From IMG/VR virus record IMGVR_UViG_3300038478_000051, positions 1 through 38,540 of that record: DNA of 38,540 nucleotides; one strand, written 5' to 3'. Below are positions 7,213-36,523 of the stretch, piece by piece. This stretch comes from a virus (taxonomy: Duplodnaviria > Caudoviricetes). The notes beneath the pieces were generated by a model that saw only the letters and a program-made list of their open reading frames with translations, was not told the origin of the DNA and did no database searches. Every line of letters begins with the position of its first letter. Position 1 is the first letter of the stretch. The position numbers and the translations under genes are program-made.

Positions 7213-9588
7213 CTAGGAACCAATGAAGCTTATTAAATCTCCAACGGTTCCTATGATATAAAGCTCGTTAGTATTATTCACAACAGCAGAGACAGAGTTT
7301 CCAGGCTCTAAAATATATCCGTTTCCTGTTCCGGTATCGACATTATTCACTCCTGGTCCTCCAATGTGAATATCGGCCGCGTTGGTTGATTTAGCGGTAA
7401 TGATTACCCCGTTAGCCAAGGAGTTTGATGGGAGTTGTGTAACACTATTTGTGACAGCAAGTAGTATTTGCCCCTCACAAGGATTATTAGCTATAGCTCC
7501 CTGTGTCGCAAAACCTGCAGGAGTTGATTGGATACTAACCACTAATTCTCCTGTGATTGCCGATGTAGCAACAACCTGAATATAATTCATTCCAGAAACA
7601 GGACCACTAAAAAGACCATCTAAGGATGCTTGTGATACATTACCTCCTGATGTGTTCGTGAGAAGTAAAGGGTAATAGGTAATGCCGTCTATTGAGTATT
7701 GAAAGGCTACTGTCCCGGTCCATGTCCCTGAAAGCTGAATGGAGACAGTGGCATCCCCAGGATTTAAATTTTTGATTATAATTTGACCATTATTCTCTAT
7801 AATCCCTATCACCGACTGATTTGCTAAAACATTTGATTGAAAAGAAGTATTATAGCTTCGAAACATATTCACAATATCAGTATCACTACTATTATCGGTT
7901 ACTCCCGGATTAGCAGTTGAAGTTAAGGCAATATCATAGGATTGGGCTCCTGATGATTCAGCATTTCCTGACCAGGGGATAATTCCATCTCCCCCGTAAA
8001 GCTCAAGAAAATAGTAATAAATAGCTTTAAATGCCTGATACCGGTTATACAAAGGGAAATAGGTATTGTCACCAATTGTCCCTTGTAAAAATCCAACTTC
8101 CCCAATCACGGCTGGTTTATTATTCATATGGGCGGTATTCACAAAATCCTGCAGTTGCGCCTCAAATCCCGCTCCTGATACCCCATTTGTCCCGGGATAT
8201 CCTAAGAATGCTCCATAGGGTTGTAAATGGACCCCATCCCCCTGATTGGGATACACATGATAATCTGAATAATTAAGATTTTTAAGCGTTGAAAGAATTC
8301 GATAATCAGGACCCTCAAAGGTACCATTAAATACAGTATCCTGATTTTCATATTGCCAACCATGAGCCATATCCCCAAAACCAATCAAATGATTTGGGTC
8401 AATAGATCTAATGTAAGTTGACACAATATCAGTCCACCCACCAGGCTTTGAAAGTATTGCTAAATTCGGAGCGTTTAACGTATTAACCACATTACCTGGA
8501 TCATAATTATTGGTACGCAATTCATTCCCCAATTCCCAAGAAAAAATAGCCGGGTGGTTTTTGTATTGAATTCCATCAACTGTACTCACCCTATTAACCA
8601 ATGTATAAATAAAATCCTGATACATTTGTTGAATAAGTGGTTGACTAAAAAAACTTAAATAAGGATAGGAATTAGGGAAATTTGTTCCATTGATGGTATT
8701 ACAGGTTTGCACATACCATCCTTTTGTGTTGTAATTATTCTCATTACCATCAGCTAAAGAAAGAATTAATTTTATTCCCCTTTTCCTCGCTTCATTAAGA
8801 ACCATATCCAATTGTTGAAGAGAGGATTGATTATAAGCCAAGACTTGCGTTGTTTGTAAAGAAAGACTTGCATTATTATAATAAAATAAATTCTTACCAC
8901 CCCAATTTTGAATAGATAATCTAACTGTTGTATAAGTTGATGAATTAAATGAACCTTGAAATAATTGCCAATTTGAAGAACTAGAAACATAACCAAAATT
9001 TTGAATGATTGTGGCTCCTGTTATATCAGTAATAAGAACACGGGGAGGATTTGAACTTCCCCCACCCGGAGTATGTGTCCCTTGAGCATAAAAACTAAAT
9101 ACATAATTTGTATTAGGCGTTACCGTTGCTGTATAGGATATTTCATCATAGGTACTATTTGGACTATTTTGTTCAACACAATAAGAACCTGTCTGAGGAG
9201 TTGGAGATGTAACAAGAGACCATACTGACCCATTAGGCGGAGTGCCCGTTGTTCCATCATCCCATCCAGTAAAGCTATTAGTAGTTAAATTATTTGTTAT
9301 AAGATTAGTTCCAATAGCATATTGAATAGATCGAAAATTACCGGGAGGATCAAAACACCACGTTCTTATAACATTAATGTTATCAAACAAAGCTGCATCC
9401 ATAAATGCCTGCACTTGAGATTGCGTAGATCCTTGAATTAAAGGATAATAATTAATCCCACTAAACTTAAATGGTTGTCCCTTGTAATAAAATTGAGAAC
9501 CAATTTGTTGCACAAAGGGACTCTGGGCATTGATTGCCTGATTTGAATTTGCTGATTGTCCTGATAATGTTGGTGATCCTAAATACAT
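7213..9588 (-). CDS. GH5 glycoside hydrolase (mannanase-like) with inserted CBM4/9-like module and C-terminal virion-type domains
   Basis: F.F.G.NYY, VIRTW, LD.VL.EA.KRGIKLIL, WELGNE (acid/base), YHVYP and VIGEVG (nucleophile) motifs. Confidence 0.85.
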   Translation of the reverse strand: MYLGSPTLSGQSANSNQAINAQSPFVQQIGSQFYYKGQPFKFSGINYYPLIQGSTQSQVQAFMDAALFDNINVIRTWCFDPPGNFRSIQYAIGTNLITNNLTTNSFTGWDDGTTGTPPNGSVWSLVTSPTPQTGSYCVEQNSPNSTYDEISYTATVTPNTNYVFSFYAQGTHTPGGGSSNPPRVLITDITGATIIQNFGYVSSSSNWQLFQGSFNSSTYTTVRLSIQNWGGKNLFYYNNASLSLQTTQVLAYNQSSLQQLDMVLNEARKRGIKLILSLADGNENNYNTKGWYVQTCNTINGTNFPNSYPYLSFFSQPLIQQMYQDFIYTLVNRVSTVDGIQYKNHPAIFSWELGNELRTNNYDPGNVVNTLNAPNLAILSKPGGWTDIVSTYIRSIDPNHLIGFGDMAHGWQYENQDTVFNGTFEGPDYRILSTLKNLNYSDYHVYPNQGDGVHLQPYGAFLGYPGTNGVSGAGFEAQLQDFVNTAHMNNKPAVIGEVGFLQGTIGDNTYFPLYNRYQAFKAIYYYFLELYGGDGIIPWSGNAESSGAQSYDIALTSTANPGVTDNSSDTDIVNMFRSYNTSFQSNVLANQSVIGIIENNGQIIIKNLNPGDATVSIQLSGTWTGTVAFQYSIDGITYYPLLLTNTSGGNVSQASLDGLFSGPVSGMNYIQVVATSAITGELVVSIQSTPAGFATQGAIANNPCEGQILLAVTNSVTQLPSNSLANGVIITAKSTNAADIHIGGPGVNNVDTGTGNGYILEPGNSVSAVVNNTNELYIIGTVGDLISFIGS

Positions 9589-10623: not shown

Positions 10624-11532
10624 CTATTGTTGTGCTAAATTATTCCCTTGATTCTTTAAAGATAATGGCGCAGCAAACCATCTACCCCAACCTGAATTCT
10701 GTTGAAGAAGGGATGCAAAATTAGCATTCTTTTGAGGATCATTCATATCATCATAGCTTGTTATCCCCATTTGTGCTAGTTGCTGGCGCGAAGTAGGATT
10801 ACTCATATACCCATTAAATGTATTACTATTAATTCTGAAAAGGCCCCTATCAGTTGAGCCATCTGAGTTGGTGCTGTCTCCTACATATTTAAAGCTGGCA
10901 TTTTCCCCGTAATTATTTGAAGTATGACCGAATTGCTGAACCTCAGAGGGAGTGTACGTTTGGGATTTTGGGTGATTCAGAACCTGGGCCGCATTTGTCG
11001 CTTGTCCAGTAGAATTAAAAGCATTTAATAATATCTGTGCTACCGCAGGAGGAAGAGTTAGTTTTCCTCCTTGAGAATAGGGGATGGTGATGTTTGGTTG
11101 CATTGAATTAGTAGGGCGTTGTTGTCCTTGATTGACAACTGGTTGTTGGGGTAATTGCGTAGGTGTTGGGGTTGGTTGAGTTGCTTGGGGAGCGCTATTA
11201 ACAGTCAACGGTACCTGTGTTCCATAGGCATGTCCCCCCGGGGAATTTACCGCACCCTGGTAAAGGTTAAATTGCTGGTTTGCATTTTGTCCTTGGAGAT
11301 TTCCCTGGTTTGCTCGTTGCCATTGAAAAAATCCGGGAGTATTAGTCTGTTGTTGATTAAATAGTTGGGATTGTGGGGTAGGTGCTTGATTTTGAGGTGC
11401 AAGATGCAAGCTTTGAGCGAGTTGAGTGATGTTCTGACCCATACCGGATACAGCATTATCCACTCCTTGGACTGCCTTCTGAGGAAGATTTAAAAGCTGA
11501 TAGATGGCGCCATAGATTGCATTTGGATTCAT
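10624..11532 (-). CDS. Putative ejection protein with C-terminal lysozyme-like/transglycosylase domain
   Basis: Q/P/N-rich N-terminus, then E-N...NSDGSTDRGLFRINS...DPQKN...GWGRW lysozyme-superfamily motif. Confidence 0.75.
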   Translation of the reverse strand: MNPNAIYGAIYQLLNLPQKAVQGVDNAVSGMGQNITQLAQSLHLAPQNQAPTPQSQLFNQQQTNTPGFFQWQRANQGNLQGQNANQQFNLYQGAVNSPGGHAYGTQVPLTVNSAPQATQPTPTPTQLPQQPVVNQGQQRPTNSMQPNITIPYSQGGKLTLPPAVAQILLNAFNSTGQATNAAQVLNHPKSQTYTPSEVQQFGHTSNNYGENASFKYVGDSTNSDGSTDRGLFRINSNTFNGYMSNPTSRQQLAQMGITSYDDMNDPQKNANFASLLQQNSGWGRWFAAPLSLKNQGNNLAQQ

Positions 11533-12806
11533 TAAAAGTCCTCTAATTTATATTCTGGTAATTTTTTAATATCTTCTTTTATATTTTCAAGTGCTGTAAC
11601 ATATTGTTTATTTAATTTAAATGCATGAACCTCATCTGAAAGCTTAATCAAGAATTCAATTAATTTATTATAATCTGGTCCTGAAGCCACTAAAAGATAA
11701 ACTATTCCGTTTCCTTTTATGGAATATGTTTTACCCCTAACAACCGCACTGGTTCTGGTTTTAATATACTTTGAATATTTTTCAGGATATTGCAAGAGAA
11801 CATACTCATCATCTCCTGCGTCTGAACTTAATGGAAGTGCCGCTACGTATTTTCCTGTATTATCTATTTTTACATCTTCACCCCTTGCAACCTTCCAAAT
11901 AACTTCAGAATAATTCTTGATAGATAAAGTATATAAAGTACTCAAAGGATAGGCAAAACGCTGACATGCATCAATAAAGAATGGTTTTCCATCTTTTGTA
12001 ATCCTAACCTCGGATGACATTGGTCCACGATAATCAACCTTCTGAAAATAGGGAGTTAAGGCATCTTGTACTTTTTTCAAGGGTGATGGTAATTGATCTA
12101 CATATATGCCTACATAACTACTTTTATCTTTTTCTATTCCATAAAGATGGGGGGCTATCCATTTCTTTCCATTAAAGAATGTGTCATATCCCAATTCCTT
12201 TGCATCCTCAATGCAATCTTCAACAAGGAATGAGTATTGATCGGCAAAAGGACCCCATTTTACCTGAATTTCATCAAGATATTCTGCTACTAAATCGTAA
12301 TTCTCCGCATAAAAACTATCTACATCTCCTCTCCATATATTCACTTTTATATATTTTTTAGGATTGCGTTTCAAATACTCTCGAAGGGCAGGAATGCCTT
12401 TCACTATTTCTGTTTTTTGAACAGGTAATCCAACTTCTCCTTGAAGTTGCCGCATAAACTCACGATTAAGCTCTAATTTATCTCCTCCTAAGTTGCTCCC
12501 AAAAACGGTTTTACCTTGCTTACGAAGATAAGAAACCCAATCTCCAAACATCACGTCACCAAAGAATATTAAATCAACTTTGTCAACATAATTCCAGAAT
12601 GTTTTAACTTTCTCTATTCCTATATCCTCTAATCCTAATCCTGGACTGAATTGGTCAAATTTAGGATATGCACCGAAAAAAGGGGTATAGTAGAAGGTTT
12701 GATGTCCATCTAAAGCTATACGCTTAACATGTTCAACTTCTAATCCATATCCCGCACAAAGCACTTTTAATTTCTTTCCTACTCCACCATAATTATTATC
12801 AGCCAT
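11532..12806 (-). CDS. ATP-grasp fold ligase (PurD/GARS-like, divergent)
   Basis: VFG...KLELNR.F...GLPV, YIK, FLVEDCIE..ELGYD and YRGPMSSEVRITKDGKPFFIDACQRF motifs matching ATP-grasp elements. Confidence 0.75.
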   Translation of the reverse strand: MADNNYGGVGKKLKVLCAGYGLEVEHVKRIALDGHQTFYYTPFFGAYPKFDQFSPGLGLEDIGIEKVKTFWNYVDKVDLIFFGDVMFGDWVSYLRKQGKTVFGSNLGGDKLELNREFMRQLQGEVGLPVQKTEIVKGIPALREYLKRNPKKYIKVNIWRGDVDSFYAENYDLVAEYLDEIQVKWGPFADQYSFLVEDCIEDAKELGYDTFFNGKKWIAPHLYGIEKDKSSYVGIYVDQLPSPLKKVQDALTPYFQKVDYRGPMSSEVRITKDGKPFFIDACQRFAYPLSTLYTLSIKNYSEVIWKVARGEDVKIDNTGKYVAALPLSSDAGDDEYVLLQYPEKYSKYIKTRTSAVVRGKTYSIKGNGIVYLLVASGPDYNKLIEFLIKLSDEVHAFKLNKQYVTALENIKEDIKKLPEYKLEDF

Positions 12807-12936: not shown

Positions 12937-13362
12937 ATGCCAATATTTATATATTATTGCCTATATTGCAAAAAAGAATTCAAAGATATAAATTATAGTA
13001 GGAAATTTTGCTCTAAAATATGTATGGATATAAATTGGAAAGGAAAACATAGAGGGAAAAATACTGAATTTAAAAAAGGACAAATGAGAAACCAAACCAA
13101 CGAAAAAAATCATATGTGGAAAGGTAACAATGCAGGTTATACAGCTCTACATTATTGGGTAAGTAAACGATTGGGAAAAGCAGCATTTTGTTCAAATGAT
13201 ATAAATCATAAAACAACTCGTTATGTATGGGGTAATATTAGTGGAGAATATAAACGTGATATTTCTGATTGGCATAGTTTGTGTGGAACATGTAATTTAA
13301 CTGATGGAATTAAAATGTACAAAATTTTTGATAAAAAAAGACATCGTATTATCATGAATTAG
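12937..13362 (+). CDS. Free-standing HNH-like homing endonuclease
   Basis: CxxC, FCSxxC, WKG...GY.ALH.WV, W.NISG.Y.RD..DW..LC..C motifs; antisense to the flanking late genes. Confidence 0.75.
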   Translation: MPIFIYYCLYCKKEFKDINYSRKFCSKICMDINWKGKHRGKNTEFKKGQMRNQTNEKNHMWKGNNAGYTALHYWVSKRLGKAAFCSNDINHKTTRYVWGNISGEYKRDISDWHSLCGTCNLTDGIKMYKIFDKKRHRIIMN

Positions 13363-23026: not shown

Positions 23027-23609
23027 TTAGGTCTTAATTAACACACCTCCAAGGGTACGTAACCCTGAGACACCATAGATCGAGTCACACGTTACTAACC
23101 ATGCGAGATATGGTAACCAATAGGCTGCCATAAGTCGTGGTGCCATTTGAACCGCTAACACGAGAGCTTCCTTTTGGAAGAGAATGTTATTGGTTTGATT
23201 TGGCGTTGATATAGTTACCGGAACATTATTTGTGTAATAAACCGGGAAACCATAGATATTTCCCCACAGATACCGGTTGTTTGGACCGATTTGTGCCCGC
23301 TGTGGTTTCTGATATTCGCCTTGATAGTCAGCCCTTACAAATTTATCAATTTGCAGGATTGCGGCTATCTGAGAGGGAGCTAACACCATAGCCCGTCCTT
23401 CCATAGGAATATCATTGATGTTTAATTGGTTCATTCCTGAAACAATTGTTCCATCTGAAATATTTTGTCCGTATTGACCCTGTGCGCTGGTTGTAAAGGT
23501 CGTATAGTTACTAAATGTGTCGCTGTCAATCTGTTTCGCGATGGCATAACCACATTTTTCACTGTACAAAGACCTAAGGTCATAAGCTGCCTGTATAGCA
23601 GGCATATCT
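23027..23609 (-). CDS. Major capsid protein, exon 2 (HK97 fold, P22 gp5-like)
   Basis: YDLRS.Y....GYAIAKQID, GR.MVL.P, GNIYGFPVYYTNN and D.IYGV..LR motifs. Confidence 0.88.
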
Positions 23610-24537
23610 CGTTTTGTTATCGCAAGCTTTCTATTTCTTGCTTCTCTATATTCCTATAGAGTCCTGGTCATATCACCCCTTTCGGGACGGGCGCTAATGA
23701 AGTTTATTGTTTTCCTACTCACCTTCTGACCGACGCACCTTCTCACTACTAATTGGAATTTGTGAGCTTGGCTCAATATGTCCCACTTTTTCAGTTGGGG
23801 ATTCTATTGAATTCACCCGTTTATTCAATTGAGCTAAATTGTGATAATAAGCTTTTGTTTTGATCTTATGGCAATCCTTGCAAAGAGTTTGTCCATTATT
23901 GGTATCATAAAAATATTCATCTTGGCAATCAAATTCGTTTGGATTATTATTTATTAAATCTGCCAACGGAATTATGTGATCGGATTCTAATTTTCCTCCT
24001 CGCTTATTACACATTTGACAAGTCCAATTATCTCTCATAAAAACAAATTGTTGCCATGCATAATATTTATCCGTTGTCCGAACTTTATGTGCCTTTTTGG
24101 TTACTCCACCTTTCCATTTTATATTTCGTTTTCCTTTTCTATCTTTTGCAAAACAACTAAGGGAGCAATATATTCTTGGAACAGATGGTCTTATCTTTAT
24201 TTGCTTTCCACATGTCTTACAATTTCCATATGTAGTTCTTTTTCTACATTCAAGACTACAATGGAGCTTGTTTCCTTTCTTCACAAAACTCAATCGCCTT
24301 GTAAAAGATTTTCCACATGTTTGACAAATAAATGTTCTTGAATTTATTCGGCGCTTATCCAACATCCAACATTTTTGAGAACAATATTTCTTTTGATACC
24401 ATTCAGGTTTCCACAAATCGATGTTACAATAGAAACATTTACGCATGAATCTATTATACCATAACTTCTTATCACTTGTAAAAGAGCAAACCCTTTTACT
24501 TCTACCTTAACTCAAAGGTCGAAGATACTTATAGTTT
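23610..24537 (-). ncRNA. Group I intron (928 nt) in the major capsid gene
   Basis: P3 ACGGGTG(23820-14)/CGCCCGT(23693-87); P4 TTCAAT/ATTGAG; P5 TCCC/GGGA; P6a CTCAC/GTGAG; P7 GGTCA(23731-27)/TGACC(23670-66); P8 CCC-GAAA-GGG; P9 CTCTATA-GGAA-TATAGAG; terminal G at 23610. Removal restores the reading frame. Confidence 0.88.
23715..24446 (-). CDS. Intron-encoded HNH homing endonuclease with multiple Zn-finger repeats
   Basis: Three CxxC...(Y/H)CSxxC units, WKGG, RDNWTCQMC...DHIIP...NGQTLCKDCH; the 3' end runs into the intron core. Confidence 0.88.
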   Translation of the reverse strand: MRKCFYCNIDLWKPEWYQKKYCSQKCWMLDKRRINSRTFICQTCGKSFTRRLSFVKKGNKLHCSLECRKRTTYGNCKTCGKQIKIRPSVPRIYCSLSCFAKDRKGKRNIKWKGGVTKKAHKVRTTDKYYAWQQFVFMRDNWTCQMCNKRGGKLESDHIIPLADLINNNPNEFDCQDEYFYDTNNGQTLCKDCHKIKTKAYYHNLAQLNKRVNSIESPTEKVGHIEPSSQIPISSEKVRRSEGE

Positions 24538-24815
24538 TCGAGCTGGAAGGTTGCTTCATACCATTTATTGATATAAATCGTTGTTCCAGTTTCGGTAATT
24601 GCCTGTGTTTGTGTCGTTTGATTCGGTTGCTTTGCGTTTGCGACCAAATTGCTAACATTAGGCACAGTAATTGCCTGACCTTTTGCCTTCACTTGAGAAT
24701 CTAACCTTTTAACCAATGGCGCCAATACTAACGCTGTCTCTGTGGCCCTTAGCACGTCTAAAGACCAGATTGTTGGCAGAAAAATAGCTGCCGTTGTCGT
24801 TGTAATATTGTGCAC
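24538..24815 (-). CDS. Major capsid protein, exon 1
   Basis: F.P.IWS..VL, G.AI.VP and I.INKWYE..F motifs; SD AAAGGAGGTGA before GTG. Spliced length is 278+583=861 nt (286 aa). Confidence 0.88.
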
Positions 24816-36163: not shown

Positions 36164-36523
36164 ATGAAGATTATATGGTTAAAAAGTGGAGATCCTGTAT
36201 TTGTAGATGATGAGGACTATCCTATTTTAATGCAATACGAATGGTCGCTAACGCAAAATATATGGAGCTGTAATAAATATGCTTCTAGGGGGCGTAAGCC
36301 CTCCGGGATGCATCGCTTTATAATGAATACACCTAAAGGATTATATACAGACCACATTAATCATAATGGTCTAGACAATCGCCGGGTTAATCTTAGAATT
36401 GTTACAGCTTCACAGAATCAATTAAACTTAAAGAAAAATTGTCTTGATTGTAAAAATAAAACACATGATTATAATTATTTTAAGATTGATATATCCTCAA
36501 TCCCCAATATTGCCATAGTTTGA
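36164..36523 (+). CDS. HNH endonuclease (HNH_3-type, no recognisable AP2 domain)
   Basis: VDDEDY, MHRFIM, DHINHNGLDNRRVNLR...SQN motifs. Confidence 0.85.
   Translation: MKIIWLKSGDPVFVDDEDYPILMQYEWSLTQNIWSCNKYASRGRKPSGMHRFIMNTPKGLYTDHINHNGLDNRRVNLRIVTASQNQLNLKKNCLDCKNKTHDYNYFKIDISSIPNIAIV

What the first reader, a model, noticed from the sequence alone, without database searches (positions are those of the whole stretch)
23612..23820. Intron catalytic core with fully covaried, non-consensus P7 and P4
Seen: P7 is T-(bulged C)-GGTCA / TGACC-A instead of the consensus GACUA/UAGUC. The G-C pair of the guanosine-binding site is kept and three neighbouring pairs are swapped compensatorily. P4 is TTCAAT/ATTGAG, J5/4 is CAT, and a P7.1-like stem lies between P7 and P3. 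Inference: a divergent subgroup that sequence-based searches may miss. The J4/5-J5/4 region normally docks the U·G wobble, so its divergence could be coupled to the odd splice site.
Basis: partly seen in the sequence, partly recalled or inferred. Interest (0 to 1): 0.7.

Follow-up and report, generated by a model that had tools for sequence, protein, structure and literature searches.

The report
Capsid intron cut after adenine
A 928-base intron with an unusual catalytic core interrupts this phage's only capsid gene and is absent from matching RNA contigs; it likely splices itself out next to an A-U pair instead of the near-universal U-G pair, but relatives show that the odd core and the odd splice site are not linked.

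Summary
The core is real. A 928-nt group I intron (24537-23610, minus strand) with an HNH gene splits the only major capsid gene. P7 U[C]GGUCA/UGACCA and P7.1 are confirmed; P4 is one base off (UCAAUA/UAUUGA, J5/4 = CA). The 5' exon must end in A: an uninterrupted identical protein exists, and 2 of 3 RNA runs laid hold exactly this joint. The internal guide gives a 10-bp P1/P10 helix with A(-1)-U. The proposed coupling fails. Seventeen distinct introns share GGUCA/UGACC, and 13 of the 15 with a visible 5' end have U at -1. The sister intron L466 (66% identical, two codons upstream in the same capsid family) also has A-U but a normal AAA/AA receptor. GGUCA is rare (1 of 108 in a P7-blind sample), Rfam finds 1 of 17 such loci, and the scaffold is that of ordinary IA-like phage introns. 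A261 is G in 14 of 17 family members and 0 of 106 introns lacking G265, suggesting a swapped base triple. This scan noted an A-U capsid intron before on other DNA (e1-8353740). Self-splicing is untested. New variant of a known kind.

The parts
24538..24815 (-). Major capsid gene, exon 1 (GTG start; ends in the middle base, A, of the Glu93 codon)
   Evidence: phrog_267 positions 27-118; matches residues 1-93 of uninterrupted P0001
23610..24537 (-). Group I intron, 928 nt, ending in G (omega-G at 23610)
   Evidence: Joint skipping 928 nt in RNA runs X5 and X7, register free by one base; junction enumeration
24519..24541 (-). [quoted passage not shown]
   Evidence: same 4-bp P1 in sister intron L466; pairing predicted
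24523..24528 (-). P10 strand of the internal guide (GUAUCU), pairs 6 bp with the start of exon 2
   Evidence: 10-bp P1+P10 helix, 164 of 20000 shuffles reach it; changed together with the exon in L466 (5 bp)
24505..24518 (-). Predicted P2 hairpin (CCUU/AAGG); its 3' part can also form a rival helix with exon 1
   Evidence: by inspection
24453..24482 (-). Sigma-70-like promoter inside the intron, 6 nt before the HNH start codon (leaderless mRNA predicted)
   Evidence: 11 of 12 consensus matches with TG; same spacing in L104 and L222
23715..24446 (-). HNH endonuclease ORF (243 aa), reads through P3-P7 and stops in the P7.1 loop
   Evidence: 12 PHROG families, Pfam HNH above cut-off
23687..23820 (-). 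P3 (23820-23814 / 23693-23687), P4 (23810-23805 / 23778-23773), P5, P6, P6a; J4/5 GAA 23804-23802, J5/4 CA 23780-23779
23665..23736 (-). J6/7 GCG (23736-23734; G at position 261), P7 U[C]GGUCA / UGACCA, P7.1, P8, J8/7 GUGAUA
23622..23661 (-). P9 and P9.1 hairpins
23027..23609 (-). Major capsid gene, exon 2
   Evidence: phrog_267 positions 124-323; identical to the C-terminal part of P0001

Best explanation
A 928-base group I intron carrying an HNH endonuclease gene interrupts the phage's single major capsid gene and likely removes itself by the ordinary guanosine-initiated two-step reaction, cutting after an A that is predicted to pair with U rather than at a U-G wobble. Shown: the insertion, its size, the A at -1 in either allowed register, the joined form in RNA-derived contigs, and the covarying helices. 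Inferred: the internal guide GUAUCU-UCGA pairs the two exons (P1 4 bp, P10 6 bp), the terminal G binds the retained G264-C311 pair, and the cut site is set by P1's place next to P2 and by P10, probably at some cost in rate. The GGUCA/UGACC P7, the G at 261 and the altered P4 are older, compensated features of a capsid-intron lineage that mostly keeps U at -1; the A-U site arose later in the branch holding this intron and L466. The HNH protein likely spreads the intron by homing and is predicted to be made from an internal promoter.
For: Split capsid halves cover consecutive parts of phrog_267; one capsid copy in the 38.5-kb record. P0001 is an uninterrupted 286-aa protein equal to the joined exons; Glu93 and Asp94 are in 109 and 110 of 112 aligned rows, which allows only two registers, both with A at -1. 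RNA runs X5 (depth 896) and X7 (depth 14), two studies, hold the 928-nt skip with 0 other letters in the exons, whereas the intron-less DNA allele in X6 differs at 8 third positions just upstream; X5 also holds a piece of the intron ORF at depth 39. Sister intron L465/L466 (962 nt, 66% identical, HNH 55% identical) sits two codons upstream, also after UCGA, with its guide changed to match a different exon 2 (9-bp helix, 288 of 20000 shuffles). Between the window and L466, 11 of 50 core pairs changed on both sides, 1 on one side, 2 lost standard pairing. Tree without P7 and J6/7: window+L466 100/98, then L104 (U.G site) 100/94.
Against: RNA evidence is assembled contigs, not reads: an intron-less strain with identical exons would give the same contigs, and the joined form was not tested in DNA from the peat samples. 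X4 shows no joint (no contig covers it). A rival 12-13-bp helix between exon 1 and intron bases 22-34 is predicted far more stable than local P1+P2 (-17.3 against -9.2 kcal/mol). Watson-Crick geometry at this site is reported to cut docking about 100-fold in Tetrahymena for G-C (PMC13692252, passages), so efficient splicing at A-U is unexpected. No RNA data for L466. Family junctions were placed by hand.
Confidence: 0.8

Rival explanations
1. One reading: the remodelled P7/P4/J5-4 core co-evolved with, and is what permits, the non-U splice site.
For: The window has C instead of A at 206 (AA in 106 of 108 blind-sampled cores). One of two other evaluable introns with C there (L354) also has a non-U site: homologues read LLTSQVITNE, forcing G at -1 with a terminal G. 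The outer P7 pair is U262-A312 in both A-U introns and A-U in the 15 other family members.
Against: 13 of 15 evaluable GGUCA introns have U at -1. L466 has A-U with AAA/AA. L352 has C206 with U at -1; L168 and L435 have U206 with U.G. U262-A312 also occurs in L237, whose 5' end reads as U.G by eye, and in the two A-U introns it is shared by descent.
Confidence: 0.07
2. The cut lies one base further on: the 5' exon ends with the whole Glu codon and the intron ends in A instead of G.
For: The RNA joint is free by one base and this register gives the same protein and the same 10-bp helix.
Against: G264-C311 is intact; the G lies 12 nt after the conserved GAUAACA tail start in both the window and L466, as in other members (12-13 nt, by eye); this register breaks two rules instead of one, and would put A at -1 here but G at -1 in L466.
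Confidence: 0.06
3. The element no longer splices; the intron-bearing genome is defective and the RNA contigs come from an intron-less strain with identical exons.
For: Intron-less alleles exist (X6, P0124, 71 of 80 capsid loci show an unbroken junction); in X6 the intron-bearing piece is a minority (depth 4 against 54-83); contigs cannot prove splicing.
Against: The known intron-less allele differs at 8 third positions next to the site while the RNA contigs match the intron-bearing exons letter for letter; core, guide, promoter and HNH are intact and changed compensatorily relative to L466; the best DNA holders carry 78-95% of the words of the intron-bearing stretch.
Confidence: 0.05
4. First-step docking uses the long distal helix (exon paired with intron bases 22-34, with a G(-2).U pair), and the RNA switches to the local guide only for exon ligation, possibly with help from a ribosome or protein.
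For: It is the minimum-energy fold of the 5' region and also places A(-1) opposite U.
Against: L466 keeps the local UCGA/UCGA helix and P2 start but its distal helix is in another register; in relatives P2 follows P1 directly; the distal helix separates P1 from P10.
Confidence: 0.1

Closest known systems
Group I introns of phage protein genes, IA-like, many with HNH genes (e.g. Bastillevirinae introns, PMC11878797, passages seen)
   Same: Same helices P1-P10, a P7-P3 insertion (P7.1), an HNH ORF in a loop, terminal G; profile models cross-detect canonical viral introns and this family.
   Different: P7 GGUCA/UGACC, G at 261, A-U at the 5' splice site; host is a major capsid gene; missed by RF00028; no similar record among 50,697 annotated phages at the core level.
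Group B IStrons such as BcISt1 (Tourasse, Stabell and Kolsto 2014, PMC4227781, passages seen)
   Same: Natural group I ribozymes shown to splice after a purine; the paper states the last exon base is virtually always U, exceptionally C.
   Different: They cut after G with a U-G pair shifted by one base and are fused to IS607 transposases; here the base is A, no U-G lies at or next to the site in the local P1, and the cargo is an HNH gene.
Tetrahymena IC1 intron active site (PMC10020454, passages seen)
   Same: G-binding site of four triples (A263-C262-G312, G-G264-C311, A261-A265-U310, A306-C266-G309); A114 and A207, which read the wobble, have counterparts here.
   Different: Three of the four triples have other bases here (C-U-A, G-G-C, A-U-A); no U-G wobble; short P5 without P5abc; P7.1 present.

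Membership tests
Group I intron | Core helices P3, P4, P6, P7, P8 in the standard order with pseudoknot | tested here: met
Group I intron | G264-C311 pair next to a bulged base in P7 | tested here: met
   G23731 with C23666; invariant in 9 of 9 aligned cores
Group I intron | Terminal G | tested here: inconclusive
   G at 23610 fits, but the RNA joint is free by one base
Group I intron | Internal guide pairing with both exons (P1, P10) | tested here: met
   10-bp helix, 164 of 20000 shuffles; covaried in L466
Group I intron | U-G wobble at the 5' splice site (near-universal, with published exceptions) | tested here: not met
Group I intron | Precise removal from RNA | tested here: inconclusive
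   Joined form in 2 of 3 RNA runs laid, contigs only
Group I intron | Guanosine-dependent self-splicing | not testable with these tools
   needs in vitro assay
Rfam RF00028 (Intron_gpI) | Score above the gathering threshold | tested here: not met
   no match in the window
Subgroup IA2 | Two hairpins P7.1 and P7.2 and a three-part P9 (as described in PMC4227781) | tested here: not met
   one P7.1 stem closing a 20-nt loop; P9 and P9.1 only
Subgroups IA1/IA3 and other GISSD subgroups | Best score against the subgroup covariance models | not testable with these tools
   GISSD models not available; an insertion between P7 and P3 is IA-like (recalled, and PMC3984707 passage)
Group B IStron | IS607 transposase genes at the 3' end; cut after G with shifted U-G | tested here: not met
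   single HNH ORF upstream of the core; A at -1

The most novel reading that the evidence does not exclude
This intron and L466 form a natural group I lineage that splices efficiently in vivo at a Watson-Crick A-U site with an unchanged wobble receptor, has moved between two capsid-gene sites by keeping a UCGA guide, and uses a guanosine pocket in which the 261-265-310 triple is swapped to G-G-C; it would be a ready-made ribozyme free of the U requirement.
Probability: 0.45. Interest if true: 0.75.

Novelty: new variant of a known kind. Interest (0 to 1): 0.56.

Why it matters
The U-G wobble is the textbook marker of the group I 5' splice site and the main limit on retargeting trans-splicing and circularising ribozymes (PMC13692252, PMC11417360, passages seen). 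A natural A-U intron in an essential single-copy gene, with a matching RNA joint and a sister intron at a second site, gives a direct test of how far the wobble is dispensable. The family also supplies natural covariation for the 261-265-310 base triple of the G pocket, and shows that a lineage of capsid-gene introns is largely invisible to Rfam, which leaves capsid genes annotated as fragments.

Tried and rejected
Exact-P7 pattern in viral contigs: 82 hits, all judged chance on inspection. HNH relatives: 11 loci; no Rfam match in the 10 scanned and none at E<=0.001 with model R1. Searches for introns with C at J5/4: one search gave 2 real introns of 5 hits, one search gave 3 of 42 (two repeats plus L372, a truncated core with no usable splice site); too few for a test. 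An automatic P1/P10 junction caller failed on the known cases, including the window, so no base rate of non-U sites was taken from it. blastn of the core against annotated phages found nothing significant; L176's core matched only about 50 nt of P/Q region in annotated phage introns. The Fisher test ignores descent and is not used as evidence. Trees rest on 181 columns and the bootstrap had not settled. RNA run X4 covers neither side of the joint and says nothing. Whether peat DNA holds the joined form stayed untested. Paper searches for a natural A-U site or this P7 (listings only, except the passages cited) found none; the library lacks most subscription papers, including the classic comparative work, and supplements were not read, so absence from print is not shown.

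Full report
Setting. The window is a whole 38,540-nt phage record with terminase, portal, primase and lysozyme genes; its best sequencing-run holders are labelled peat and permafrost metagenomes. On the minus strand the major capsid gene is in two pieces that match consecutive parts of phrog_267, with an HNH ORF (24446-23715) and the reported core between them. No second capsid copy was found, and model R1 finds only this one intron in the window.

The observation. P7 is U-[C]-GGUCA / UGACCA, G264-C311 is kept, and pairs 265, 266 and 267 are each changed on both sides relative to GACUA/UAGUC. P7.1 is a 4-bp stem. J6/7 is GCG, so position 261, normally A, is G. Numbering follows Tetrahymena; the four triples and the role of A114/A207 are from PMC10020454 (passages). 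On 9 unsplit cores the 36 named pairs are 97.2% paired with 16 two-sided changes, 0 of 500 shuffles as high.

The splice site. P0001 is an uninterrupted 286-aa protein identical to the joined exons, reading FQLEDMPAIQ. Glu93 and Asp94 are in 109 and 110 of 112 rows (one row is the HNH protein, let in by my length filter). Of 514 open in-frame junctions near the boundaries only two give this sequence, and both have A at -1. With the terminal G the intron is 24537-23610, and its guide GUAUCU-UCGA forms 4 bp with exon 1 and 6 bp with exon 2, A(-1) opposite U; 164 of 20,000 shuffles reach 10 bp. In one search, 2 of 3 RNA runs (X5, depth 896; X7, depth 14; separate studies) hold a contig that skips exactly 928 nt with no other letters in the exons; X5 also holds part of the intron ORF at depth 39; X4 has no contig at the joint. 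The one DNA run laid (X6) holds an intron-less allele that differs at all 8 third positions of the codons before the site (table 5c, compared by eye), plus a low-depth piece that crosses the intron's 3' end. These are contigs, so an intron-less strain with identical exons is not excluded, and peat DNA was not tested for the joint.

The family. After merging copies there are 17 distinct GGUCA/UGACC introns, window included. Five hosts tested are major capsid proteins of two further PHROG families and one is a ribonucleotide reductase small subunit; L168's host looks like a cold-shock protein (by eye, motif recalled). In a sample blind to P7 (6 of 64 parts scanned; 127 matches, 108 distinct after dropping duplicates, one chance-like and one truncated row) P7 was GACUA in 89, GGUCA in 1, with compensated intermediates GACCA (5) and GAUCA (3). 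Rfam gathering found 0 of 10 GGUCA loci against 7 of 10 canonical ones and 1 of 6 further GGUCA loci; five GGUCA cores are split by ORFs and three loci are short, which also lowers scores. A sequence profile of 48 canonical cores finds the window at 27.7 bits and unsplit relatives at 49-66; the family model scores canonical-P7 cores up to 112 bits. With P7 and J6/7 left out, GGUCA falls in 3 places of the tree, at least 2 forced by supported branches. So this is a P7 variant within the common IA-like phage scaffold, not a demonstrated new subgroup; PMC11878797 (passages) notes that phage introns fit the subgroups poorly and that RF00028 is incomplete.

The coupling test. Junctions were placed by hand from frame, host-protein sense and P1, then scored: of 15 family members with a visible 5' end, 13 have U at -1 (best P1 U.G in 12; L101 U.G by eye) and 2 have A-U (window, L466). 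L104, the next relative, shares the altered P4 and has U.G. L466 (962 nt, 66% identical) lies two codons upstream in the same capsid family, again after UCGA, with a guide changed to fit its own exon 2; both of its terminal-G registers put A at -1. Its J4/5-J5/4 is the normal AAA/AA. Among other introns with C at 206, L352 has U at -1 and L354 must have G at -1. The last is the one result in favour of a link, and it is a single case. The other distinct introns in this capsid family (L435, L455, L469 scored; L467 by eye) have U.G. P7 and P4 therefore predate the A-U site and C206 postdates it.

Position 261. G261 occurs in 14 of 17 GGUCA introns, in all three tree positions, and in 0 of 106 blind-sampled cores without G265. 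G265 does not require it (L186, L193, L435, L345 keep A). I infer that the A-A-U triple is replaced by G-G-C; this is untested and rests on two or three independent origins.

Mechanism. Most likely ordinary two-step splicing: exogenous G in the intact 264-311 pocket attacks after A(-1), P10 forms, and the exon 3'-OH attacks after the terminal G (pathway from PMC3984707, passages). The A here is the middle base of a conserved Glu codon (GAA 43, GAG 28 in 71 of 80 loci), so the exon cannot supply U; that argument is weaker at L466's site, where the residue varies. How the site is chosen without a wobble is inferred, not shown. Against: the more stable distal helix and the large docking penalty reported for Watson-Crick geometry (PMC13692252, passages). 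Homing by the HNH protein and its leaderless expression from the internal promoter are inferred.

Comparison. PMC4227781 (passages) states that the last exon base is virtually always U, exceptionally C, and shows group B IStrons cutting after G with a shifted U-G; PMC11417360 (passages) shows c-A works in engineered Tetrahymena. My nine paper searches listed no natural A-U case or this P7, within a library that lacks most subscription papers; no supplements were read.

Noticed in passing
window 24482-24446 (-); L104, L222: Near-consensus sigma-70 promoter inside the intron with the ORF's ATG 6 nt after the -10 box, predicting a leaderless HNH mRNA; same spacing in 2 relatives of 11 scanned.
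   Followed up: partly
window 24558-24537 against DNA run X6: The intron-less allele differs at all 8 third codon positions just before the site but is about 98% alike elsewhere: a co-conversion tract or escape from the HNH enzyme.
   Followed up: no
L354:184-456 (+): Canonical-P7 intron ten codons into a P22-like coat gene with J5/4 = CA; homologues force G at -1 (G-C pair, bulged G before a 3-bp P10).
   Followed up: partly
L404-L483: 8 of 80 loci of this capsid family carry introns, at five other sites, four of them within residues 91-113 counting the window's own.
   Followed up: partly
L435:921-1096 (+): GGUCA P7 combined with a different P4 type (GCUGG/UCAGC) and A261, suggesting recombination between core halves or convergent change.
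   Followed up: no
L168 (- strand): A small gene resembling a cold-shock protein is broken by at least two closely similar introns a few codons apart.
   Followed up: no
L100, L101, L153, L170: Family members whose endonuclease ORF (LAGLIDADG-like motif by eye, recalled) is inserted in P5 and overlaps the P4 5' strand.
   Followed up: no
L231, L232, L281, L301, L316, L455: Further P7 variants in viral introns (GCAUA, GCACA, GAAUA, GAACA); the GCAUA, GCACA and GAACA cores tested were not found by Rfam.
   Followed up: partly
window 12937-13362 (+) and 36164-36523 (+): A free-standing HNH ORF at 36164 and an unassigned ORF at 12937 on the strand opposite the structural genes; no intron core near either.
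   Followed up: no
window 11532-12806 (-), 7213-9588 (-): A 424-aa ORF with no Pfam match that looks ATP-grasp-like by eye, and a 791-aa ORF with a weak carbohydrate-binding match that looks like a glycoside hydrolase.
   Followed up: no
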